Of a DNA stretch of 11,129 nucleotides, positions 1-11,129 are shown piece after piece. Position 1 is the first letter of the stretch, and each line of letters begins with the position of its first letter. Under the pieces are notes generated by a model. The model was not told where the DNA came from. It did no database searches and was given only the letters and a program-made list of their open reading frames with translations. Location: IMG/VR virus record IMGVR_UViG_2617270947_000015; one strand, 5' to 3'. The stretch is from a virus (Duplodnaviria > Heunggongvirae > Uroviricota > Caudoviricetes). The position numbers and the translations under genes are program-made.

Positions 1-327
1 TCACTTTTTCCAGAGGCGGTCGAACTCCGCCTTCGCAAAATAAGCGGAAGCCTGGCGAAGGATATCGTTACTGCGGCGCAGTTCACGATTTTCACGTTCC
101 AGCTCTTTCAGACGCTGACGTTCAGCGGTGGTGAGCCCTCCATCACCGCCCCCGGTATCCCGCTCATGCTGGCGAACCCAGACACGCAGAGTCTCCGGCG
201 TACAGCCAATCTTTGGAGCAATGGAACAAATTGTCGCCCATTGTGAGTCATATTCGCTCTGACTTTCCAGAACCATACGGACTGCCCGTTGACGGACTTC
301 GGGGGAAAAACGAGTATTTTTAGTCAT
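1..327 (-). CDS. IS3-family transposase OrfA (108 aa, HTH protein)
   Basis: Translation [21 protein letters not shown]...[32 protein letters not shown] has the typical IS3-family OrfA HTH plus leucine-zipper layout. It lies 54 bp inside the terminal inverted repeat. Confidence 0.85.
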
Positions 328-2309: not shown

Positions 2310-2609
2310 ATGAAACTTAAATATTCTGGCTTAACTGCCAGTGGCAAAACTCGCACTAAATTCATGCGCGGTGATATTTACCGCGACCAGTACGGCGGCA
2401 CGGTAATGATTAAGGGCGTGGAGGAACGGCGCGTAACCTACCGTCGTGAAGGCTACGAATATGATTGCGTGATGCCTGTTTATCAGTTCGATCGTGATTT
2501 TTCTCTGGTGCAGGCCGTACCGCGTAACGTGCCCACCAGCAGGGAGAAAGCACGCGCCAATATTCAGGAAATAAAAAAGATGCTTAACGTATTCAGGGGT
2601 AAGAAATGA
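2310..2609 (+). CDS. Hypothetical protein (99 aa) immediately upstream of and coupled to the primase gene
   Basis: GGAGA Shine-Dalgarno upstream; its stop overlaps the primase start at 2606. Translation MKLKYSGLTASGKTRTKFMRGDIYRDQYGGTVMIKGVEERRVTYRREGYEYD.... Confidence 0.6.
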   Translation: MKLKYSGLTASGKTRTKFMRGDIYRDQYGGTVMIKGVEERRVTYRREGYEYDCVMPVYQFDRDFSLVQAVPRNVPTSREKARANIQEIKKMLNVFRGKK

Positions 2610-4360
2610 AACTGGCACCGAACGTAAAAAAACAACCACGCGGAATAAAACACAAAGACACAGAGGTAATTATTTTCGCGGGTAGTGATGCGTGGTCACA
2701 TGCAAAACAGTGGCAGGAGCAGGACGGCCCCGCATCCGGCGATAATGTGCCGCCTGTGTGGCTTGGGCCAAATCAGCTTGCCGAACTTGATGCGCTGAAA
2801 ATTGTTCCGGATGGGAAAAAGCGCGTAAGGCTGTACCAGGCCGGAGAACTGGATTTAGTGGAGACCAAAAAGATTGGTCAGAAGCTGGCGGCGGCAGATA
2901 TTCAGGACGCAAATTTTTACCCTGATGGTATGCACGGTCAGAAGGTGGAGAACTGGCGCGAATATCTGGCCCGTGAGCGCCAGAATCTTTCTGATGGTCT
3001 GGTCATTGAGCTTCCGGTAAAGCAAAAGGCGCAACTTTCGCAGATGGCGGACAGTGAGCGCGCGCAGCTGCTTGCCGATCGCTTTGATGGCGTTTGCGTA
3101 CATCCTGAAAGTGAAATCGTTCACGTATGGCGCGGCGGGGTATGGTGTCCGGTCAGCACAATGGAACTTAGCCGCGAAATGGTGGCGATCTATTCAGAGC
3201 ACAGGGCCACTTTCAGCAAGCGCGTAATCAATAACGCCGTGGAAGCGTTAAAAGTTATTGCCGAACCAATGGGCGAGCCGTCCGGCGATTTGCTGCCGTT
3301 CGCCAATGGTGCGCTTGACCTGAAAACGGGGGAATTTTCCCCGCACACGCCGGAGAACTGGATCACCACGCACAACGGCATTGAGTACACGCCACCAGCA
3401 CCAGGGGAGAACATCCGCGATAACGCGCCAAACTTTCATAAATGGCTTAAGCACGCAGCCGGAAAAGACCCGCGCAAGATGATGCGTATATGTGCCGCGC
3501 TGTACATGATTATGGCGAACCGGTACGACTGGCAGATGTTTATTGAGGCCACCGGAGACGGCGGGAGCGGTAAAAGTACATTCACGCACATAGCCAGCCT
3601 TCTGGCAGGGAAACAGAACACGGTAAGCGCTGAAATGACATCGCTTGATGATGCTGGTGGACGTGCGCAGGTTGTCGGGAGTCGTCTTATCGTCCTAGCT
3701 GACCAGCCGAAATATACAGGCGAAGGAACGGGCATCAAGAAAATCACGGGCGGTGACCCCGTGGAAATTAACCCGAAATACGAAAAGCGTTTCACGGCTG
3801 TAATCAGGGCGGTGGTGCTGGCGACCAACAATAACCCGATGATATTCACCGAACGGGCCGAAGGTGTGGCACGTCGTCGCGTGATTTTCCGTTTCGACAA
3901 TATCGTCAGTGAGGCCGAAAAAGACAGGGAGCTACCGGAAAAGATCGCGGCTGAAATCCCTGTCATTATCCGCCGATTGCTGGCGAACTTTACCGACCCT
4001 GAGAAGGCACGGGCTTTACTACTGGAACAGCGTGACGGTGATGAAGCACTGGCAATAAAGCAACAGACGGATCCGGTTATTGAGTTTTGCCAGTTCCTGA
4101 ATTTTCTGGAGGAAGCGCGCGGCCTGATGATGGGGGGCGGTGGCGATTCAGTGAAGTACACGACCAGGAACAGCCTTTACCGCGTCTATCTGGCGTTTAT
4201 GGCATACGCAGGCAGGAGCAAACCGCTAAACGTAAATGACTTTGGAAAGGCTATGAAGCCTGCCGCAAAAGTTTACGGACATGAATATATTACGCGGAAA
4301 GTTAAGGGGGTAACGCAGACTAACGCAATAACAACAGACGAGTGCGACGCGTTTTTATAA
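2606..4360 (+). CDS. Satellite/phage replication protein: P4/D5-family primase-helicase-like NTPase (584 aa)
   Basis: Walker A GDGGSGKST and Walker B-like RLIVLAD motifs in the C-terminal half, with the overall D5_N / P4-family primase C-terminal (SF3 helicase-like) layout. It is followed immediately by an iteron array. The N-terminal ~300 aa are of unclear domain identity. Confidence 0.85.
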   Translation: MKLAPNVKKQPRGIKHKDTEVIIFAGSDAWSHAKQWQEQDGPASGDNVPPVWLGPNQLAELDALKIVPDGKKRVRLYQAGELDLVETKKIGQKLAAADIQDANFYPDGMHGQKVENWREYLARERQNLSDGLVIELPVKQKAQLSQMADSERAQLLADRFDGVCVHPESEIVHVWRGGVWCPVSTMELSREMVAIYSEHRATFSKRVINNAVEALKVIAEPMGEPSGDLLPFANGALDLKTGEFSPHTPENWITTHNGIEYTPPAPGENIRDNAPNFHKWLKHAAGKDPRKMMRICAALYMIMANRYDWQMFIEATGDGGSGKSTFTHIASLLAGKQNTVSAEMTSLDDAGGRAQVVGSRLIVLADQPKYTGEGTGIKKITGGDPVEINPKYEKRFTAVIRAVVLATNNNPMIFTERAEGVARRRVIFRFDNIVSEAEKDRELPEKIAAEIPVIIRRLLANFTDPEKARALLLEQRDGDEALAIKQQTDPVIEFCQFLNFLEEARGLMMGGGGDSVKYTTRNSLYRVYLAFMAYAGRSKPLNVNDFGKAMKPAAKVYGHEYITRKVKGVTQTNAITTDECDAFL

Positions 4361-4648: not shown

Positions 4649-4927
4649 ATGCACACTTCAGGGAAATTTAATAAATCACTCAAAAAACGCAGAGACAGAA
4701 CAGAACCGAAATATCGCGCGTTAGACATGACAGAGCACGCTTTAAAGGTGGCAATCAGAACGATAGACCGCCACGCGGGGGAAGGATACGCGAAAGCACA
4801 TCCCGAACTGATAAGCGCATTCATGACCACGACGGCGGCAAATTTTGCCACGCTGACAGAGCGGGAGATTGCCGAAGCGGAACAGGTAACAACCATCAAC
4901 GTTAAAACCGGAGAGGTGGAATCATGA
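4649..4927 (+). CDS. Hypothetical protein (92 aa)
   Basis: GAGGGGG upstream of the ATG at 4649. Its stop overlaps the SSB start (ATGA at 4924). Translation MHTSGKFNKSLKKRRDRTEPKYRALDMTEHALKVAIRTIDRHAGEGYAKAHPEL.... Confidence 0.55.
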   Translation: MHTSGKFNKSLKKRRDRTEPKYRALDMTEHALKVAIRTIDRHAGEGYAKAHPELISAFMTTTAANFATLTEREIAEAEQVTTINVKTGEVES

Positions 4928-5346
4928 CAGCACAGATAGCAGCTTACGGGCGGCTGGTGGACGACCCGCAGGTAAAACAGACCAGCAAGGGCACACCGAT
5001 GACGCTGGCGCGTATGGCGGTCCCCCTTCCGTGCAGCCAGGCAGATGACGGAACGGCGACGATGTGGTTATCCGTCCTGGCATTTGGCAGACAGGCCGAA
5101 GCACTGGAAAGGCACCGCAAGGGTGAACTCCTGAGCGTGGCGGGTAACATGCAGATCAGCCAGTGGACTGGGCAGAACGGAGAAACGCGGCAGGGCTGGC
5201 AGGTTATCGCAGACAGTGTAATCAGTGCGCGAACGGCGCGACTGGGCGGCAAAAAAGGTCAACAGGGCCAGGCTACTGACGCGCTGAACAGGGCAAAACA
5301 ACAGGCGGGGAATGATGATCCGTACGGGGATAACATACCGTTTTAA
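4924..5346 (+). CDS. ssb: Single-stranded DNA-binding protein (SSB-like, 140 aa)
   Basis: GGAGAGG Shine-Dalgarno. OB-fold-like core (LSVLAFGRQAEALERHRKGELLSVAGNMQISQWTGQNGETRQGWQVIADSV) followed by a Gly/Gln-rich linker and an acidic C-terminal tip DDPYGDNIPF, resembling the SSB DDDIPF tail. Confidence 0.8.
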   Translation: MTAQIAAYGRLVDDPQVKQTSKGTPMTLARMAVPLPCSQADDGTATMWLSVLAFGRQAEALERHRKGELLSVAGNMQISQWTGQNGETRQGWQVIADSVISARTARLGGKKGQQGQATDALNRAKQQAGNDDPYGDNIPF

Positions 5347-5362
5347 GCGACGAGAGACAGAA

Positions 5363-5384
5363 GCCGGAGCAATCCGGCTTTTTT
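5363..5384 (+). terminator. Rho-independent terminator after the replication operon
   Basis: Stem GCCGGA (5363-5368) / TCCGGC (5373-5378), loop GCAA, then TTTTTT (5379-5384). Nearly identical to the hairpin at 7804-7826. Confidence 0.7.
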
Positions 5385-5450
5385 ACGGGTCCTCCTGGCG
5401 GGGTGGGCCTGAACACGGGGCGGGAAGCGCGGAAAAAAGCGCATTTTTGT
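5385..5450 (+). other. Degenerate cos-like sequence (direct, diverged copy of the cos site at 7827-7900)
   Basis: ACGGGTCCT...ACGGGGCGGGAAGCGCGG...GCATTTTTG aligns with ACGGGTCCTTTCCGG...ACGGGGCGGCGACCTCGCGGGTTTTCGCTATTTATG of copy A, but with many substitutions inside the cosN-equivalent. Confidence 0.5.
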
Positions 5451-5565
5451 GATTTTATCGTCATCATCATCATGAGCGTAATTTATTGTTTTTAATTGTT
5501 TTGATGCAAAAAAGATGATGGTTGTGGTTAATTTTCGTTCGACATCTTTGCAGGCAGATAAAAAA

Positions 5566-5602
5566 GCCCGATAAGGTCAGAGGTGGCTTATCGGGCTTTT
5601 GC
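5566..5602. terminator. Strong hairpin flanked by A/T runs on both sides (potentially bidirectional terminator)
   Basis: Perfect 10-bp stem GCCCGATAAG (5567-5576) / CTTATCGGGC (5588-5597), preceded by AAAAAA and followed by TTTTG. It lies in a ~400-bp stretch with no convincing ORF. Confidence 0.6.
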
Positions 5603-5677
5603 ATATGAGGCTTTTTGGTGCACTGACACACATGAGCGGGATCATCATTTCATAATTTGCAACACAACTCAATATCA

Positions 5678-5726
5678 TTGCACAAAACGCAATCCTGATT
5701 ATAATCAGAGCTGGATGAACATCCAG
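5678..5726 (+). promoter_or_regulatory. Candidate promoter of the capsid operon with an operator palindrome at the predicted start
   Basis: TTGCAC (5678-5683), 16-bp spacer, perfect TATAAT (5700-5705). A perfect 7-2-7 palindrome CTGGATGAACATCCAG (5711-5726) follows immediately downstream of the -10. Confidence 0.5.
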
Positions 5727-5761
5727 TTATGATTTTTTAAGTCGAAGAGGAATTTCTTACT

Positions 5762-5968
5762 ATGGCTGAAGAGAAAAAAGGCGGTGTTTCGGTGTACATA
5801 AGCCCCGAAATCGTGGAGGTGCTCAAGCAGCGCCACAAAAAAAACTATGAGGCTGGCGTGGCGGCTGGACTGGATCCGCTGATGACGCCGGAGCCGTCGA
5901 TAGGTTCACTTGTACGCTCTTATTTACTTGCGGCGCTTGGGATGCATAAAAATTATGGGGGTGAATAA
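5762..5968 (+). CDS. Hypothetical small protein (68 aa), translationally coupled to the major capsid gene
   Basis: GAGGAA Shine-Dalgarno; its stop TAA overlaps the capsid gene ATG at 5968 (TAATGG). Translation MAEEKKGGVSVYISPEIVEVLKQRHKKNYEAGVAAGLDPLMTPEPSIGSLVRSYLLAALGMHKNYGGE. Confidence 0.55.
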   Translation: MAEEKKGGVSVYISPEIVEVLKQRHKKNYEAGVAAGLDPLMTPEPSIGSLVRSYLLAALGMHKNYGGE

Positions 5969-7023
5969 TGGCAGGCAAAGCAACGGCACTTAACACTAAC
6001 CAGCTTTTCATGTACCTGAATCGCGGGGATATTGCGGATTTTAAATTCAGCCCTCTGTTTACTACGCTGTTTTTCCCGAACGTGGCGACATTCAGCACGC
6101 AAAACATCATGCTGGATACCCTGGACATTGAAGAAGTCACCATGTCGGCGTTTTGTTCGCCTATGGTGGGTAGCCAGGTTCAGCGCGATAAAGGGTACGA
6201 AACCAGCACGATTAAACCTGGCTACATGAAGCCAAAGCACGAAATCGATCCAACGAAAACCATCATGCGCATGGCTGGAGAAGATCCGGCACAGCTTAAC
6301 GACCCTACCTATCGCCGTATGCGCCTGATTACTGGCAATATGCGCCGCCAGATAAACGCCATAAAAGCGCGCGTGGAATGGCTGGCGGTAAATGCGGTAA
6401 CGACCGGAAAAAACATCATTGAGGGCGAAGGCATAGAGCGCTATGAAATCGACTGGAAGATACCGGAAAAAAACATCATAGAGCAGGCCGACGGGAAAAA
6501 ATGGTCAGAGCAGGACAAAGAAACCCACGATCCAATCTATGATATCGAACTATACGCCGATCAGGCTGGTTGCCCCGCAAACGTCATGATTATGGGCGCT
6601 GAGGTATGGCGAACGTTACGCAGCTTTAAAAAATTCCGTGAGCTGTACGATCTTTCCCGTGGTTCAGAATCCGCCGCCGAACTGGCCTGTAAAAACCTGG
6701 GCGAAGTGGTGAGCTTTAAAGGCTATCTTGGTGATCTGGCCCTTATCGTCTATTCCGGCAAATACACTGACAGCGATGGTACCGAAAAATATTTCCTTGA
6801 GCCTGATTTGCTGGTCCTGGGCAACACCAACAATAAAGGGCTGGTGGCCTATGGTGCGATAATGGATCAGGAAGCGGTAAGAACGGGCGCAACACAAAAC
6901 ATGTTTTACCCGAAAAACTGGATTGAGGACGGCGATCCGGCGATTGAGTACGTGCAGACACACAGTGCACCGCAGCCGGTACCGGCAGATATTCGCAAAT
7001 TTGTTACCGTCAAAATTGGTTAA
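5968..7023 (+). CDS. Major capsid protein, lambda gpE-like (351 aa)
   Basis: Collinear similarity to lambda gpE as I recall it: FKFSPLF..LFF, TIKPGYMKPKHEIDP, EDPAQLNDPTYRRMR, KWSEQDKETHDP, LRSFK, SFKGYLGDLALIVYSGKY, LVLGNT, YPKNWIEDGDPA, with similar length. Strong GGGGGTGA Shine-Dalgarno. Confidence 0.85.
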   Translation: MAGKATALNTNQLFMYLNRGDIADFKFSPLFTTLFFPNVATFSTQNIMLDTLDIEEVTMSAFCSPMVGSQVQRDKGYETSTIKPGYMKPKHEIDPTKTIMRMAGEDPAQLNDPTYRRMRLITGNMRRQINAIKARVEWLAVNAVTTGKNIIEGEGIERYEIDWKIPEKNIIEQADGKKWSEQDKETHDPIYDIELYADQAGCPANVMIMGAEVWRTLRSFKKFRELYDLSRGSESAAELACKNLGEVVSFKGYLGDLALIVYSGKYTDSDGTEKYFLEPDLLVLGNTNNKGLVAYGAIMDQEAVRTGATQNMFYPKNWIEDGDPAIEYVQTHSAPQPVPADIRKFVTVKIG

Positions 7024-7035
7024 CGGGGGGATTCT

Positions 7036-7371
7036 ATGGACACTCCATACATTGAGTTATTTGCAGGCAGTCAGCAGGTCGCCACGACGCTGGTACATTT
7101 TGCCGCTGATGCTGGCGTTATTCAGGAATTTACCCCGCTGATGCTGGCAGACAATGGCGAGTTTAAGCCGTGGGATGGTCAGGAATCTGGCAAGGCTGTT
7201 TATCTGACCTCGTACCCTGTGGACACGTCAAAGCAGAAATCAGCACAGTGTTACAAGACGGGGATTTTCAATATTGCCGCCGTTAACTGGCCTGAGAGCG
7301 TCGACACCGATGCGAAAAAATGCGCCGCCTTTGCGGGTTCTGGCGTATCCGTTCAGCCGCTGGCCCGATAA
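7036..7371 (+). CDS. Head decoration protein, lambda gpD-like (111 aa)
   Basis: Same length class as lambda gpD with shared motifs TPLML, WDG, YKTGIF (lambda YKSGTF), WPE, DAKK.AAFAG. GGGGGG Shine-Dalgarno. Adjacent to the gpE-like gene. Confidence 0.75.
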   Translation: MDTPYIELFAGSQQVATTLVHFAADAGVIQEFTPLMLADNGEFKPWDGQESGKAVYLTSYPVDTSKQKSAQCYKTGIFNIAAVNWPESVDTDAKKCAAFAGSGVSVQPLAR

Positions 7372-7383
7372 GCAGGGGGAACG

Positions 7384-7797
7384 ATGGCAACGAATGAAAG
7401 CGTCATGACGCTACCGCTGGCGAGTAAATTTAAAGCCGAAGCGCGGGCAATGGCTGACAGAGGTTTATCAACCTACGAGGCCGTATATCAACTCAACAAA
7501 CTGGAAGAGCAGGACAAGCCGCGCGCTGATGCGATTATGGCGCTTCATGAACATAACGACTATCAGCCGCTGTTACGTGCAATGGCAAACGTGCCATGTA
7601 TTAGCGTCGATAATGCTCGTGAAATCCTGAACATGACCATAGAGCAGGAGCGCCCAAAGGTTGCGCCGGAGCTTACCGCAGCCTTTGAAAACTTTATGGA
7701 CATGCACAGCCCGAAAGCCGTATCACCCGGCATGGCATACGACGGCAGAAACCAGGGCGATGAAGGCGACGTCGATCGCATACTGAAAACCATCTGA
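7384..7797 (+). CDS. Hypothetical protein (137 aa), last gene of the capsid operon, immediately upstream of cos
   Basis: GGGGGAACG Shine-Dalgarno. Translation MATNESVMTLPLASKFKAEARAMADRGLSTYEAVYQLNKLEEQDKPRADAIMALHEHNDYQPLLRAMANVP.... The terminator hairpin and cos site follow directly. Confidence 0.6.
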   Translation: MATNESVMTLPLASKFKAEARAMADRGLSTYEAVYQLNKLEEQDKPRADAIMALHEHNDYQPLLRAMANVPCISVDNAREILNMTIEQERPKVAPELTAAFENFMDMHSPKAVSPGMAYDGRNQGDEGDVDRILKTI

Positions 7798-7803
7798 CAT
7801 AAG

Positions 7804-7826
7804 GCCGGAGAAATCCGGCTTTTTTT
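7804..7826 (+). terminator. Rho-independent terminator fused to the upstream edge of the cos site
   Basis: Stem GCCGGA (7804-7809) / TCCGGC (7814-7819), loop GAAA, then TTTTTTT (7820-7826). Confidence 0.7.
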
Positions 7827-7900
7827 ACGGGTCCTTTCCGGCATATGGACCCGTTACGGGGCGGCGACCTCGCGGGTTTTCGCTATTTATGACGTTTTTC
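7827..7900 (+). other. Lambda-type cos site (cosQ-cosN plus start of cosB), intact copy A
   Basis: ACGGGTCCTTTCCGG...GTTACG-GGGCGGCGACCTCGCGGGTTTTCGCTATTTATGA. The 12-nt lambda cohesive-end sequence GGGCGGCGACCT is exact at 7859-7870, and the flanks match the lambda right-end/left-end junction as I recall it. A Nu1-like gene follows, as in lambda. Confidence 0.85.
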
Positions 7901-7959
7901 CGTGAAGGTGACACCACCACCACTTGATTAATATTTAACCATGCGGTTAAGGTAACATT

Positions 7960-8400
7960 ATGATTGATAAAGCTTGTTTTGTAAGTCAGCAGGAAATAGC
8001 TGAACATTTCAAGGTTAACAGAACCACTATTCGCGCATGGACCAAACAGGGGATGCCGTATCTTAATGCGGATCGCGGAAAGTCTGGCGGTTATCACATC
8101 GGGCATACATTGCTTTGGTCTTCAGGTAAAAGCCGTCTTGAGGCCATCAGATATCACGTAGAAACCAGTGCGCTGGAAAAAATTATGTTTGCCAGGCTGC
8201 TTTCATCTGAGCGTGACGAGTACTCCAGTGAAGAAACAGAACATCGATTTGATGAAGGTTTGCAGATTTACGGCTATTCACCGGAAGATGTGAGCAAGGC
8301 ACGAAATAAAATGGCTGGCTTTCTGGCTGGGTGGCGTCATGCCGTAAGCGTTCGCCGTGCCAGCATGGAACAATCAGTCGTTACAGAACAGCAAAGTTAA
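7960..8400 (+). CDS. Small-terminase-like DNA-binding protein (lambda Nu1-like winged HTH N-terminus, 146 aa); candidate cos-recognition / packaging-redirection factor
   Basis: N-terminus VSQQEIAEHFKVNRTTIRAWTKQGMPYLNADRGKSGG aligns with lambda Nu1 VNKKQLADIFGASIRTIQNWQEQGMPVLRGGGKGN. It sits about 60 bp downstream of cos, in the lambda Nu1 position, but no large-terminase gene follows. Confidence 0.7.
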   Translation: MIDKACFVSQQEIAEHFKVNRTTIRAWTKQGMPYLNADRGKSGGYHIGHTLLWSSGKSRLEAIRYHVETSALEKIMFARLLSSERDEYSSEETEHRFDEGLQIYGYSPEDVSKARNKMAGFLAGWRHAVSVRRASMEQSVVTEQQS

Positions 8401-8975: not shown

Positions 8976-9587
8976 CTGGTTGATATTTTCGAAATTCGCC
9001 AGCGGCGAACATCGGGGAAACCAGCCTAACCCGTTGATATTTTCGGAAACCTCAATTTGAGGAAGTCGGCGCGGTAACTCGCTGAACTTAAAGCAAAGCG
9101 CAAAATTGCGCTTGCTGAATAATCATTATGATTACGCAGATGATTAAGGAATGACCGAAGGCGGAAATTCGCCTGTGGTTAATGGGGGAGTTGCAGATCT
9201 GCAACTCGACCATGAAACTACGGAAACTACCCGTAGTTTGGGTAGTAAGAGTAACACCCAGATTTTGGGGCTTACTCGTGATACCCAAATTTGGGGTATC
9301 GGTGGCAACCATAACGACTTTCGTTACGGTTGATGCTTTTACCCCATTGGGGGAAAGGTATTACGATAATCATAACACCTACCGAACAGGTAAAGCCCAC
9401 CAGCCTGATTAACGTTTAACCGGAAAAAAATTCCGGTAGGTGGGGATCCCCATATAGACATTAACGCCCCTCATGAATTGGTGCGCTTCCCCCTGGAAAG
9501 ATGATCCGCCTGTATATTTCTTGTGTCTATTTGTTCCACGTTGTTTCATACGGTGCACCGAACGGTGTAGTTAATGGTGTAGTCAAT
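8966..9587. repeat. Repeat- and palindrome-dense non-coding region between the last island ORF and phoQ (candidate att arm / regulatory region)
   Basis: Direct repeats GTTGATATTTTCG(A/G)AA at 8979-8994 and 9033-9049; GCGGTAACT at 8968-8976 and 9071-9079. Palindromes AAGCGCAA-aa-TTGCGCTT (9096-9113), GTTGCAGATCTGCAAC (9190-9205), AAACTAC-cc-GTAGTTT (9224-9239), CCGGAA-aaaaa-TTCCGG (~9420-9437), CGGTGCACCG (9551-9560). Tandem GGTGTAGTTAAT / GGTGTAGTCAAT (9564-9587). Confidence 0.5.
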
Positions 9588-9668: not shown

Positions 9669-11129
9669 TTATTCATCTTTCGGCGCAGAATGCTGGCGAC
9701 CAAAAATCACCTCCATCCGCGCACCGCCCAGCATGCTCTCTCCGGCGACGATTTTACCCTCATATTGCTCGGTGATTTCGCGGGCTACCGCCAGCCCTAC
9801 ACCTTGCCCAGGGCGTAAAGTATCAACCCGTTGACCACGGTCGAAAATGACCTCTCGCTTGCTTAATGGAATACCGGGGCCATCATCCTCGACCACAATA
9901 TAGAGATGCTCGTCGGTTTGCCTTGCAGAAATTTCGACAAACTCGAGGCAATATTTACAGGCATTATCCAGCACGTTGCCCATCACCTCGACAAAATCGT
10001 TCTGCTCACCGACAAAGCTGATCTCTGGCGAAATATCGAGAGAGATATTGACCCCTTTGCGTTGATACACTTTGTTCAGCGCTGAGGTGAGATTGTCCAG
10101 CAGTGGGGCGACCGGATGCAGCTCGCGGCTGAGCAATGTCCCGCCGCGCATACTGGCACGATGCAGGTAGTAGCCAATTTGCTGTGAAATGCGGCTGATT
10201 TGCTCCAGCATTACCGGCTCAGCATCACTGACGCTCATCTTTTCACTACGCAGAGAACGCAGCGTACTTTGCAGCACCGCCAGTGGCGTTTTCAGACTAT
10301 GGGTCAGGTCGGTGAGCGTCGTACGGTATTTGTCGTAACGTTCGCGTTCACTTTTTAACAATCGGTTCAGGTTTCGTACCAGACTGGTCAGTTCTCGCGT
10401 TGTGGCTGGATTGAGCAATTCGCGGTTATGTTCTTCCAGTTCGCGGACTTCTTTTGCCAGGGCTTCGATGGGGCGTAAACTCCACCAGGCGGCGACCCAC
10501 AGCAGCGGGATCACTAACAGCAGATTGGCTGAGAGCACATAGATAAACCAGCTCCAGACCATATAGGAACTTTTTAGCTCCACCGGAATGGTATCCACCA
10601 CCACAATGGTTAATTTTGGCATCCGCGATGTTGCCGGGTAGACGTTTACTGCCACCGAGTGGGTCATCTCCGCGTCGTCATCATCTTCCCGCACTTCCTG
10701 CAACTGTTGCTGTATCGAATGATCTCCACTCAGCAAGAGGCTGGTATCGTTAACATCCGCTTCAATTTCATGAAAACCATTCGATTTCAGCCAGTCAGGC
10801 TGGATCATCTTCATCAGCCAGGGCACGTCACGTTGCGCCCATAAAAGCTGCCCGTTCTCATCATAAATTAGCGTCATGGTGGGGCTTTGCTTGTCGATAT
10901 TTTCGGGTAACTCGACATGCAACTTATTGTTTTCCCACTTCGCAAGGGTATAGAACAGATTGCTCTCGCCACGTAACAGCCGAAACGTAGTTTTATCGAA
11001 ACTGACGCTATAACCGATCAGCGCGACCATTCCGTAGGCAAGCGAAAGCACCAGTACTACCGCTGCCGTTGCCAACAGAAAACGTACCCGCAGCGAGAGC
11101 GGGAAAAAAAGACGCAGTAATTTTTTCAT
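9669..11129 (-). CDS. phoQ: Sensor histidine kinase PhoQ of the PhoP/PhoQ two-component system, complete, 486 aa
   Basis: Translation [83 protein letters not shown]...HSAPKDE matches E. coli PhoQ: two transmembrane segments, periplasmic sensor domain, HAMP, DHp histidine box ([12 protein letters not shown]) and HATPase domain. The start codon is the last three bases of the window. Confidence 0.97.

What the first reader, a model, noticed from the sequence alone, without database searches (positions are those of the whole stretch)
5678..5726. Perfect palindrome at the predicted start of the capsid operon transcript
CTGGATGAACATCCAG sits directly after a perfect TATAAT, where a bound dimeric regulator would control initiation. 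This could be how capsid gene expression is tied to helper induction or to the island's own repressor. The motif differs from the GTGTAAGACAC operators at the switch region, implying a second regulator.
Basis: seen in the sequence. Interest (0 to 1): 0.5.

Follow-up and report, generated by a model that had tools for sequence, protein, structure and literature searches.

The report
Probable LexA box at satellite capsid promoter
The palindrome just downstream of the capsid-gene promoter of this E. coli phage satellite (a variant of the model island EcCICFT073) looks like a binding site for LexA, the host DNA-damage repressor, which would switch the satellite's capsid genes on under the same stress signal that wakes its helper phage.

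Summary
The sequence is real. TATAAT lies at 5700-5705 and CTGGATG-AA-CATCCAG at 5711-5726, with 7-bp arms and a non-symmetric AA centre. Palindromy alone is not unusual: about 4 such repeats are expected per 11 kb.

The window is an allele of the phage-inducible chromosomal island (PICI) EcCICFT073, between roxA and phoQ. The palindrome precedes the c1498-c1501 homologues (68-aa ORF, capsid, decoration, scaffold-like protein).

The 20-mer AGCTGGATGAACATCCAGTT (5709-5728) has the CTG-N10-CAG shape of an E. coli LexA/SOS box. Its CTGGAT half-site matches the known ruvA and cho boxes. Its heterology index of 8.1-8.7 falls inside the range of 18 known boxes (0.6-12.8). About 0.02 such sites are expected per window.

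At least five other lineages (Salmonella-type, three uncultured, Lelliottia) keep a LexA-type box at the same place. Meanwhile the centre, the flanks and the RNA-hairpin strength all change. Some natural variants break the hairpin but move closer to the LexA consensus.

In the E. coli clade the repeat extends to 13-14 bp plus a T-run, which is terminator-like. This may be a secondary role.

Best reading: a LexA operator over the predicted transcription start, analogous to the LexA-controlled operon I of staphylococcal pathogenicity islands (SaPIs). I found no report of this for Gram-negative PICIs. No binding or induction data exist.

The parts
5555..5607 (+). Strong intrinsic terminator (GCCCGATAAG...CTTATCGGGC + TTTT, with an A-run upstream) that ends the replication module (primase, ssb)
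   Evidence: Inverted repeat I1. Conserved in all E. coli relatives. In CFT073 RNA-seq the primase and ssb genes do not change while c1498-c1501 do.
5648..5662 (+). Distal TTTCA-TAATT-TGCAA imperfect inverted repeat; candidate site for a second, unidentified regulator
   Evidence: direct repeat D2, 30-bp spacing to the proximal site. Conserved across lineages in alignment A6. L408 has two perfect TTGCAY-N3-ATGCAA copies 31 bp apart.
5678..5692 (+). Proximal TTGCA-CAAAA-CGCAA inverted repeat; its first six bases (5678-5683, TTGCAC) serve as the -35 hexamer
   Evidence: TTGC...ATGCAAT is invariant or nearly so in 10 lineage representatives.
5700..5705 (+). -10 hexamer TATAAT (TAAAAT in some lineages), 16 bp after TTGCAC; predicted transcription start about 5711-5714
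   Evidence: Conserved. c1498-c1501 behave as a separate transcription unit in CFT073. The start site has not been mapped.
5709..5728 (.).
   Evidence: Heterology index 8.1-8.7, against 0.6-12.8 for 18 known boxes. Next best site in the window scores 13.7. Same half-site as the ruvA and cho boxes. False-positive rate about 1 per 634 kb. Conserved as a LexA-type box in other lineages.
5703..5738 (+). Extended hairpin (arms 5703-5716 and 5721-5734) plus T6 (5733-5738). It is shaped like an intrinsic terminator, and its 5' arm overlaps the -10 hexamer.
   Evidence: Flagged by the terminator scan. Folding energy is -13.4 kcal/mol here and -17 to -22 in relatives. Some compensatory changes are seen. 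Not conserved outside the E. coli and Salmonella-type clades.
5745..5764 (+). Shine-Dalgarno AAGAGG (5745-5750) and the ATG (5762) of the first gene
   Evidence: GTCAAAGAGG is invariant.
5762..7797 (+). The controlled unit: 68-aa ORF (c1498 homologue, 5762-5968), lambda gpE-type major capsid protein (5968-7023), gpD-type decoration protein (7036-7371), and a 137-aa protein resembling the C-terminal part of a head maturation protease or scaffold (7384-7797)
   Evidence: Pfam and PHROG hits. Synteny with CFT073 c1498-c1501. Co-regulation in RNA-seq.

Best explanation
The palindrome is an operator for the host LexA dimer (an SOS box). It lies over the predicted transcription start of the sigma-70 promoter (TTGCAC-16-TATAAT) that drives the capsid gene unit of an EcCICFT073-type phage-inducible chromosomal island (PICI).

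In undamaged cells LexA bound at 5709-5728 would hinder RNA polymerase at about -3 to +17. DNA damage leads to RecA-stimulated LexA self-cleavage, which also induces lambdoid helper prophages. The site would then be vacated and the capsid unit (68-aa ORF, capsid, decoration, scaffold-like protein) transcribed in step with helper induction.

What is shown:
- the sequence match
- its statistical rarity
- its placement next to a conserved -10 element
- its conservation as a LexA-type box across diverged islands

What is inferred:
- LexA binding
- the position of the transcription start
- repression and SOS inducibility

Other inputs clearly exist, because the unit rises together with alpA at 37 C without any SOS response. 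LexA would therefore be one layer of control, probably a leaky one.
For: (1) Shape and half-sites. The site is CTG-N10-CAG. CTGGAT...ATCCAG arms occur in the published ruvA box (CGCTGGATATCTATCCAGCA), and a CTGGAT half-site occurs in the cho box (Table 4 of PMC3009722).

(2) Score. With a matrix built from those 18 boxes, the heterology index is 8.1-8.7 for the window and 5.5-9.2 for natural variants. Known boxes score 0.6-12.8 under leave-one-out. This is the best site in the window by more than 5 units, and shuffles give 0.02 such sites per 11 kb. Only 1 comparable site was found in 634 kb of unrelated DNA, and none scoring 10 or better in 45 kb of CFT073 prophage DNA.

(3) Position. The box starts 4 nt after a conserved TATAAT and covers the predicted start. 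Known LexA boxes that give tight control often overlap the start site (PMC8072944).

(4) Comparative evidence.
- EcCICFT073 itself carries AACTGGATGAACATCCAGTT.
- Salmonella-type L094 and L412 carry GACTGGATGAAAATCCAGTA.
- L419, L420 (a perfect 20-bp palindrome with no outer arms) and L422 each carry a box.
- Lelliottia L411 carries CACTGTTTTTTCATACAGTT, a different sequence that is still CTGT-N8-ACAG, with a heterology index of 5.8.
- All lie 26-55 nt upstream of the same first gene.

(5) Footprint. Conservation stops at the 3' edge of the 20-mer.

(6) Discriminating variants. ATCCAG to ATACAG occurs in E. coli haplotypes and independently in L422. It breaks the hairpin pair but moves toward the LexA consensus and lowers the heterology index.

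(7) Precedent. The packaging module (operon I) of staphylococcal pathogenicity islands (SaPIs) is LexA-controlled (PMC5052747).
Against: There are no binding, transcription-start or SOS-induction data for this promoter.

The heterology index uses my own 18-site matrix, not the published Lewis matrix. Its values are calibrated only by leave-one-out.

In CFT073, c1498-c1501 rose 2- to 4.7-fold after a 23 to 37 C shift. The SOS genes sulA, dinI and umuD did not change, while alpA rose 4.8-fold. The unit can therefore be induced without LexA cleavage.

Several related lineages lack any box (L170/L095/L179, L408/L098, L421, L423, L413, L414), so the box is not essential to the family.

LexA does not explain two features of the E. 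coli clade: the outer-arm complementarity with compensatory changes, and the T-run.
Confidence: 0.65

Rival explanations
1. The primary function is at the RNA level. The 13-14-bp hairpin (5703-5734) plus the U-run would be an intrinsic terminator that insulates the capsid unit from transcription coming from upstream. Transcripts that start at the embedded TATAAT promoter lack the 5' arm and escape termination. This could also coexist with the LexA operator as a secondary role.
For: The terminator scan flags 5709-5728 plus ATGATTTTTT.

The full hairpin folds at -13.4 kcal/mol in the window (z = -3.9). Relatives with perfect stems followed by U6-7 fold at -17.3 to -21.8. RNA starting at the predicted start site folds at only -3.9 to -4.8, which is no better than shuffled sequence.

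Compensatory changes in the outer stem include CAtAAC/GTTaTG to CAcAAC/GTTgTG, GG/CC in L260, and G/C in L207. Only 4 of 500 shuffles reach the observed covariation score. The Salmonella-type islands keep the outer arms despite a 3-nt insertion.
Against: Lineages that keep the box do not keep the hairpin. L422 folds at -5.5, L411 at -6.1, and L420 and L419 have only the inner stem.

Pair 5708/5729 is unpaired in 10 of 21 haplotypes. The ATACAG variants break an inner G-C pair.

G.U-type and A.C-type mismatches are both present, so no strand preference is evident (my reading).

A strong terminator already lies 100 nt upstream. No conserved upstream promoter feeds the hairpin, since the TATCAT at 5673-5678 is not conserved.

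Compensatory double changes in quasi-palindromes can arise by template-switch mutation without any selection (established knowledge).
Confidence: 0.12
2. The palindrome is the operator of a dimeric regulator other than LexA, encoded by the island or the helper. Candidates are AlpA, PerC, the 68-aa first gene product acting as an autoregulator, or a helper repressor.
For: The inner arms are conserved at the sequence level across lineages. The unit rises together with alpA without an SOS response. The 68-aa protein has an N-terminal extended segment and two helices, which is loosely reminiscent of ribbon-helix-helix proteins.
Against: The site fits the LexA matrix far better than chance.

The Lelliottia island replaces CTGGAT...ATCCAG with CTGTTT...ATACAG. 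This keeps only LexA-type features.

Islands with very different gene content all share the box: with or without PerC, with different replicases, and with or without portal and protease genes.

Foldseek found no DNA-binding fold for the 68-aa protein (best E-value 2.8), and Pfam gave nothing.

A separate conserved repeat pair (5648-5692) is available for such a regulator.
Confidence: 0.12
3. The palindrome encodes a 5'-terminal stem-loop of the capsid mRNA that protects it from 5'-end-dependent decay or modulates translation.
For: The predicted start falls at the base of the inner stem. If transcription starts at 5709-5711, an 8-bp hairpin forms at the very 5' end (-9.9 kcal/mol).
Against: With the more likely start at 5712-5714, only a 5-bp hairpin of -3.9 kcal/mol remains, which is no better than shuffles. 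The ATACAG variants, L422 and L411 lack a hairpin altogether. There is no covariation in the inner stem.
Confidence: 0.04
4. The palindrome is a chance or mutationally maintained quasi-palindrome with no function.
For: About four 7-bp-arm palindromes are expected per 11 kb. Most of the homologues compared are close relatives.
Against: The site is retained in islands whose capsid proteins are only 59-69% identical. It has a specific LexA-box character, with a false-positive rate of about 1.6 per Mb. It is fixed next to a conserved -10 element.
Confidence: 0.05

Closest known systems
E. coli LexA/SOS boxes, especially those of ruvAB (CGCTGGATATCTATCCAGCA) and cho (CACTGGATAGATAACCAGCA)
   Same: A 20-bp site with CTG-N10-CAG and a CTGGAT half-site. 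The heterology index is in the range of known boxes. The placement overlaps the promoter and transcription start.
   Different: The site sits on a mobile phage satellite, upstream of capsid genes rather than a repair gene. Its centre (GAAC) is less TA-rich than the consensus. LexA binding and SOS induction are untested. In this clade it is embedded in a longer hairpin followed by a T-run.
SaPI operon I, the packaging and capsid-remodelling module of staphylococcal pathogenicity islands, repressed by LexA (Ubeda et al. 2007, as cited in PMC5052747)
   Same: In both cases a PICI-type satellite would put its capsid or packaging module under the host SOS repressor, while excision and replication are controlled separately by a helper-dependent switch.
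   Different: The host phylum, LexA motif and genes are different and unrelated (lambda gpE/gpD-type capsid genes versus terS/cpm). Any similarity would be convergent. In CFT073 the interference gene rppA (c1503) was not co-regulated with c1498-c1501. For SaPIs the control was shown experimentally; here it is only predicted.
Intrinsic (rho-independent) terminators
   Same: A stem-loop directly followed by U6-7. Folding energy is -13 to -22 kcal/mol in the E. coli clade.
   Different: The stem is AT-rich, with only 3-5 G-C pairs. Its 5' arm contains part of a -10 hexamer. The structure is not conserved in lineages that retain the box.

Membership tests
LexA (SOS) box of Gammaproteobacteria | 16-bp core CTGT-N8-ACAG (minimally CTG-N10-CAG) within a 20-bp imperfect palindrome resembling TACTG(TA)5CAGTA | tested here: met
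   5709-5728 is AGCTGGATGAACATCCAGTT. CTG and CAG are invariant in 31 box-bearing haplotypes. G/C at positions 4 and 13 also occurs in the ruvA box, and G at position 4 in the cho box.
LexA (SOS) box of Gammaproteobacteria | Similarity score (heterology index) within the range of experimentally known boxes and well separated from background | tested here: met
   The heterology index is 8.1-8.7, against 0.6-12.8 for known boxes under leave-one-out. The next best site in the window scores 13.7. Shuffles give 0.02 sites per window, and 634 kb of unrelated DNA held 1. Caveat: the matrix is my own, built from 18 sites, not the published Lewis matrix.
LexA (SOS) box of Gammaproteobacteria | Location overlapping the promoter or transcription start of the regulated gene | tested here: inconclusive
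   The box begins 4 nt after a conserved TATAAT, 34 nt before the start codon. The promoter is predicted only and the start site is not mapped. RNA-seq supports a separate transcription unit that starts here.
LexA (SOS) box of Gammaproteobacteria | Specific binding of LexA (EMSA, footprint or ChIP) | not testable with these tools
   No LexA binding data for any strain carrying this island were found.
LexA (SOS) box of Gammaproteobacteria | recA/lexA-dependent induction by DNA damage | not testable with these tools
   The only expression data found are for a temperature shift, in which the SOS genes were unchanged and c1498-c1501 rose. This shows a non-SOS input and says nothing about SOS control.
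Intrinsic terminator | Stable stem-loop immediately followed by a U-tract on the transcribed strand | tested here: met
   flags it. Folding energy is -13.4 kcal/mol with z = -3.9, followed by T6. Relatives reach -21.8.
Intrinsic terminator | Structure maintained in evolution (covariation, retention across lineages) | tested here: inconclusive
   Two pairs show changes on both sides, and 4 of 500 shuffles reach the covariation score. However, one pair is unpaired in 10 of 21 haplotypes, and the hairpin is weak or absent in L422, L411, L420 and L419, which keep the box.
Intrinsic terminator | Transcription enters from upstream and 3' ends map at the U-tract | not testable with these tools
   No Term-seq or 3'-end data are available. 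No conserved upstream promoter lies between 5607 and 5700.
EcCICFT073-type Gram-negative PICI (context) | Gene order DUF4222/RgdR, D5-type primase, ssb, then capsid (gpE-like), decoration (gpD-like) and Rpp; inserted between roxA and phoQ as in CFT073 | tested here: met
   Pfam and PHROG hits. The CFT073 locus shows the same order and the same phoQ flank. RGD lies at residues 20-22 of the 99-aa protein. The Rpp residues R21, T22, R25 and K29 are present. The int and alpA genes are not in the window; an IS3-family element lies at the left end.

The most novel reading that the evidence does not exclude
In the E. coli clade the LexA operator would be deliberately embedded in a 13-14-bp terminator hairpin whose 5' arm contains the -10 hexamer. 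This would form a compact three-in-one module. Read-through from the early (AlpA/replication) operon would be terminated. Transcripts initiating inside the hairpin would lack the 5' arm and escape. LexA occupancy would gate that internal promoter. The capsid unit would then be insulated from helper-driven early transcription and answer to SOS, plus a second regulator acting at the TTkCA-N5-TGCAA pair.
Probability: 0.15. Interest if true: 0.65.

Novelty: new member of a known kind. Interest (0 to 1): 0.5.

Why it matters
EcCICFT073 is the model Gram-negative phage-inducible chromosomal island (PICI). Published work shows that its alpA switch responds to the helper phage and not to SOS (PMC6092414). 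No regulator has been assigned to its capsid genes, and no phenotype was found for c1499.

A LexA operator at this promoter would give those genes a direct SOS input. That would be a convergent parallel with LexA-controlled operon I of the staphylococcal islands.

It would also make the question immediately testable in an existing genetic system, using lexA(Def) and lexA(Ind-) hosts and box point mutants.

About 15% of complete E. coli genomes (787 of 5426) carry this region, including O157:H7 and uropathogenic strains. SOS-inducing antibiotics could therefore affect satellite capsid expression widely.

The practical consequence is modest if the capsid genes prove dispensable for transfer.

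Tried and rejected
1. Rfam scan of the whole window at E-value up to 1. The only hit was the IS3 ALIL pseudoknot at 1-46, with nothing at the palindrome.

2. The idea that the 68-aa first gene product is a ribbon-helix-helix autoregulator. Pfam gave nothing, even at E-value 10. PHROG assigns it to a family of unknown function. The AlphaFold model (pLDDT 73.5) has two helices, and Foldseek against the PDB found no significant match. The idea is unsupported.

3. An upstream promoter (TTCATA-18-TATCAT, 5649-5678) that might feed the hairpin. Its -10 element is not conserved.

4. Lambda N/boxB-like or Q-type antitermination. The loop sequence varies freely (GAAC, AAAC, TTTC, GTTC, GAAA, GTAC, GCAC), so loop-specific recognition is unlikely. 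I considered this only from memory of those systems.

5. A strand-asymmetry test comparing G.U-type with A.C-type mismatches. About 10 versus 5 cells and about 4 versus 3-4 events make it uninformative.

6. The first genome-contig scan with the capsid protein found nothing. The alignment-based scan gave only 7 loci.

7. The metagenome pattern scan returned mostly unrelated hits. I used these as background for the false-positive rate.

8. Literature searches for LexA or SOS control of Gram-negative PICIs, or of CP-933C/OI-51, found nothing.

9. Shared motifs between the alpA and c1498 promoter regions of CFT073. Only trivial 8-mers are shared.

Full report
**1. What is in the sequence**

One search shows TTGCAC at 5678-5683, a 16-bp spacer, and TATAAT at 5700-5705. 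Five bases follow, then CTGGATG-AA-CATCCAG at 5711-5726. Further downstream lie TTATGA, T6 (5733-5738), the Shine-Dalgarno AAGAGG (5745-5750), and the ATG at 5762.

The palindrome has perfect 7-bp arms around a non-symmetric AA. It extends to arms of 15 nt with 13 matches (5703-5717 and 5720-5734). The terminator scan lists 5709-5728 plus ATGATTTTTT as terminator-like.

The promoter scan does not list TTGCAC-16-TATAAT, because the -35 hexamer matches the consensus at only 3 of 6 positions.

Palindromy alone is not significant. The window holds 11 inverted repeats with arms of at least 7 bp and a spacer of 4 nt or less, against a simulated mean of 4.0.

**2. Context**

The genes on the plus strand are:
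- a DUF4222 protein (2310-2609), which is RgdR, with RGD at residues 20-22 (PMC3378721)
- a D5-type primase (2606-4360)
- an SSB (4924-5346)
- a strong terminator (5555-5607)
- a 68-aa ORF (5762-5968)
- a lambda gpE-type capsid protein (5968-7023)
- a gpD-type decoration protein (7036-7371)
- a 137-aa protein resembling the C-terminal part of head maturation proteases (7384-7797)
- a winged-helix Rpp homologue (7960-8400)
- phoQ on the minus strand (9669-11129)

In E. coli CFT073 the model phage-inducible chromosomal island (PICI) EcCICFT073 occupies the same roxA-phoQ site with the same gene order. The window is therefore an allele of EcCICFT073. Its left part, which would hold int and alpA, is missing or displaced by an IS3-family element.

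The palindrome lies upstream of the c1498 homologue. Related sequence occurs in 787 of 5426 complete E. coli genomes.

**3. Comparative data**

I collected relatives from several sources:
- E. coli genomes
- IMG/VR
- metagenomes
- contigs encoding diverged capsid homologues

This gave 60 distinct haplotypes of the promoter region and 36 of the palindrome region.

In the E. coli clade the inner arms CTGGAT/ATCCAG are nearly invariant and the central 4 nt vary. The flanking positions show several compensated states: CATAAC/GTTATG, CACAAC/GTTGTG, CAGGAC/GTCCTG and CAGAGC/GTTCTG. They also show many uncompensated ones. Pair 5708/5729 is unpaired in 10 of 21 haplotypes.

Overall, 93.9% of cells are paired and two pairs show double changes. 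Only 4 of 500 shuffles reach the observed covariation score.

The full hairpin folds at -13.4 kcal/mol here and at -17 to -22 in relatives, always followed by U5-8. On this evidence alone the element looked like an intrinsic terminator whose 5' arm overlaps the -10 hexamer.

**4. The LexA box**

The 16-mer is CTG-N10-CAG, the hallmark of the E. coli SOS box (consensus TACTG(TA)5CAGTA; PMC6590174).

Table 4 of PMC3009722 lists 18 E. coli LexA boxes. They include ruvA (CGCTGGATATCTATCCAGCA), which has the same CTGGAT...ATCCAG arms, and cho (CACTGGATAGATAACCAGCA), which shares the CTGGAT half-site.

I built a heterology index from those 18 sites. The results are as follows:

| Site | Heterology index |
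|---|---|
| Window 20-mer AGCTGGATGAACATCCAGTT (5709-5728) | 8.1-8.7 |
| Known boxes, leave-one-out (ruvA 8.5, uvrB 9.1, dinB 11.8, polB 12.6, dinG 12.8) | 0.6-12.8 |
| Next best site in the window | 13.7 |
| Natural variants | 5.5-9.2 |

Shuffles give 0.02 sites per 11 kb at this threshold. In 634 kb of unrelated metagenome DNA one comparable site was found. None scoring 10 or better occurs in 45 kb of CFT073 that includes a lambdoid prophage.

**5. Tests that separate the LexA box from the RNA hairpin**

(a) EcCICFT073 itself has AACTGGATGAACATCCAGTT, with a heterology index of 7.0.

(b) Islands with capsid proteins only 59-69% identical keep a LexA-type box 26-55 nt before the same first gene:
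- Salmonella-type L094 and L412: GACTGGATGAAAATCCAGTA (6.7)
- L419: GACTGGATGAACATCCAGTT
- L420: AACTGGATGTACATCCAGTT (6.25), a perfect 20-bp palindrome with no complementary outer arms
- L422: GACTGGATGCACATACAGTT (7.9)
- Lelliottia L411: CACTGTTTTTTCATACAGTT (5.8)

The L411 sequence is different but still CTGT-N8-ACAG.

(c) Hairpin stability is not conserved among these lineages. It ranges from -17.7 kcal/mol in CFT073 to -5.5 in L422 and -6.1 in L411.

(d) The change ATCCAG to ATACAG is seen in four E. coli haplotypes and in L422. It destroys a G-C pair but restores the consensus ACAG and lowers the heterology index.

(e) In the alignment of ten lineage representatives, conservation runs from the -35 hexamer through TATAAT and the 20-mer. 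It stops at CAGT(T). The following 10-20 nt are unalignable, though T-rich.

Together these favour a protein-binding site with LexA specificity over an RNA structure.

Not all relatives have the box. L170/L095/L179, L408/L098, L421, L423, L413 and L414 do not.

**6. Mechanism proposed**

LexA bound at 5709-5728 would cover about -3 to +17 of the TTGCAC-16-TATAAT promoter. DNA damage would remove LexA at the same time as it induces lambdoid helper prophages.

This parallels the staphylococcal islands, whose packaging module (operon I) is LexA-controlled (PMC5052747).

I found no paper reporting this for Gram-negative PICIs. The 2018 description shows that alpA responds to the helper and not to SOS. 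It is silent on the capsid genes, except that no phenotype was found for c1499.

**7. Expression data that bear on the proposal**

In CFT073 shifted from 23 to 37 C (PMC12890032, supplementary table), the log2 fold changes were:

| Gene | log2 fold change | Significant? |
|---|---|---|
| c1498 | +2.24 | yes |
| c1499 | +2.05 | yes |
| c1500 | +1.45 | yes |
| c1501 | +1.17 | yes |
| c1503 (rppA) | +0.33 | no |
| primase, ssb | about +0.3 | no |
| alpA | +2.26 | yes |
| sulA, dinI, umuD | about +0.25 to +0.45 | no |

This supports a separate transcription unit that starts at this promoter and probably ends before rppA. It also shows an input other than SOS, one that parallels alpA. LexA can therefore be at most one layer of control.

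Two conserved imperfect inverted repeats are the obvious candidates for that other input. They are TTTCA-N5-TGCAA (5648-5662) and TTGCA-N5-cGCAA (5678-5692), 30 bp apart. I could not assign a protein to them.

**8. What remains unexplained**

In the E. coli clade and in Salmonella-type islands the outer arms (AATCAK/ATGATT) are complementary, and some changes are compensated. LexA does not explain this.

There are two possibilities. The hairpin plus U-run may serve as a real back-up terminator or insulator. Alternatively, quasi-palindromes may be homogenised by template-switch mutation. That mechanism would account for the two-base TA to CC change in L260 without any selection (established knowledge, not tested here).

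**9. Verdict**

This is a new member of a known kind: an SOS box on a satellite, analogous to SaPI operon I. It is readily testable in the model island. All functional steps (binding, start site, repression) remain inferred.

Noticed in passing
window 5648-5662 and 5678-5692: Two imperfect inverted repeats, TTTCA-TAATT-TGCAA and TTGCA-CAAAA-CGCAA, lie 30 bp apart, and the proximal one overlaps the -35 hexamer. The 3' half (A/T)TGCAA(C/T) and the 30-31-bp spacing are conserved in diverged islands. L408 has two perfect TTGCAY-N3-ATGCAA copies. They are candidate sites for an unidentified regulator, possibly the one behind the co-induction with alpA at 37 C.
   Followed up: partly
window 5695-5708: CTGATTATAATCAG is a perfect 14-bp palindrome centred on the -10 hexamer. 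CFT073 has ATGATTATAATCAT, which is also perfect with both ends changed. Other haplotypes have mismatched ends. No explanation was found.
   Followed up: partly
L418 9289-9308 (CFT073 int-alpA spacer); L001 1163-1182: A second LexA-like site lies between int and alpA: TACTGTTTTTTTATACACTG (heterology index 5.7) in L418, and TACTGGTTTTTTGTACACTA (7.4) in L001. The 3' half is CAC rather than CAG, and the site sits inside a GTGTA...TACAC inverted repeat. Published work says alpA is not SOS-induced, so its role is unclear.
   Followed up: no
Three matches at up to 2 mismatches is not beyond chance for the window as a whole (48 of 200 shuffles reach it).
   Followed up: partly
window 1-327 (minus strand): An IS3-family orfA with the ALIL frameshift pseudoknot lies here (Rfam RF01497, 48.1 bits, cut by the window edge). 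The window lacks the int and alpA genes that EcCICFT073 has at this end, so this copy of the island may be truncated or interrupted.
   Followed up: partly
window 5346-5555: There is no PerC-family gene between ssb and the terminator. CFT073, O157:H7 and other relatives have one there.
   Followed up: no
window 9096-9239: A cluster of perfect palindromes lies downstream of the last island ORF: AAGCGCAAAATTGCGCTT (9096-9113), TAATCATTATGATTA (9120-9134), AGTTGCAGATCTGCAACT (9189-9206, containing TTGCA-GATC-TGCAA) and AAACTACCCGTAGTTT (9224-9239). They may relate to the cos/cosB region or the island end. This was not examined.
   Followed up: no
L007 about 4835-4865, L009 about 4875-4905, L013 about 2525-2555: A more distant PICI subfamily (capsid about 56% identical, no 68-aa ORF, no LexA box) has three direct TTGC repeats at 10-bp spacing (TTGC-N6-TTGC-N6-TTGC) upstream of an extended -10 (TGnTAnCAT). 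From memory this resembles lambda CII-type activator sites. Not tested.
   Followed up: no
window 7384-7797: The 137-aa protein matches the C-terminal part of head maturation proteases (phrog_53, positions 495-567 of 583). This suggests a Nu3-like scaffolding protein without the protease domain. Some relatives carry a full S49 peptidase instead.
   Followed up: no
window 7797-7960: A 163-bp gap with promoter-like sites lies before the Rpp homologue. In CFT073 RNA-seq, rppA (c1503) did not follow c1498-c1501. The interference gene may therefore have its own promoter, outside any LexA control.
   Followed up: partly
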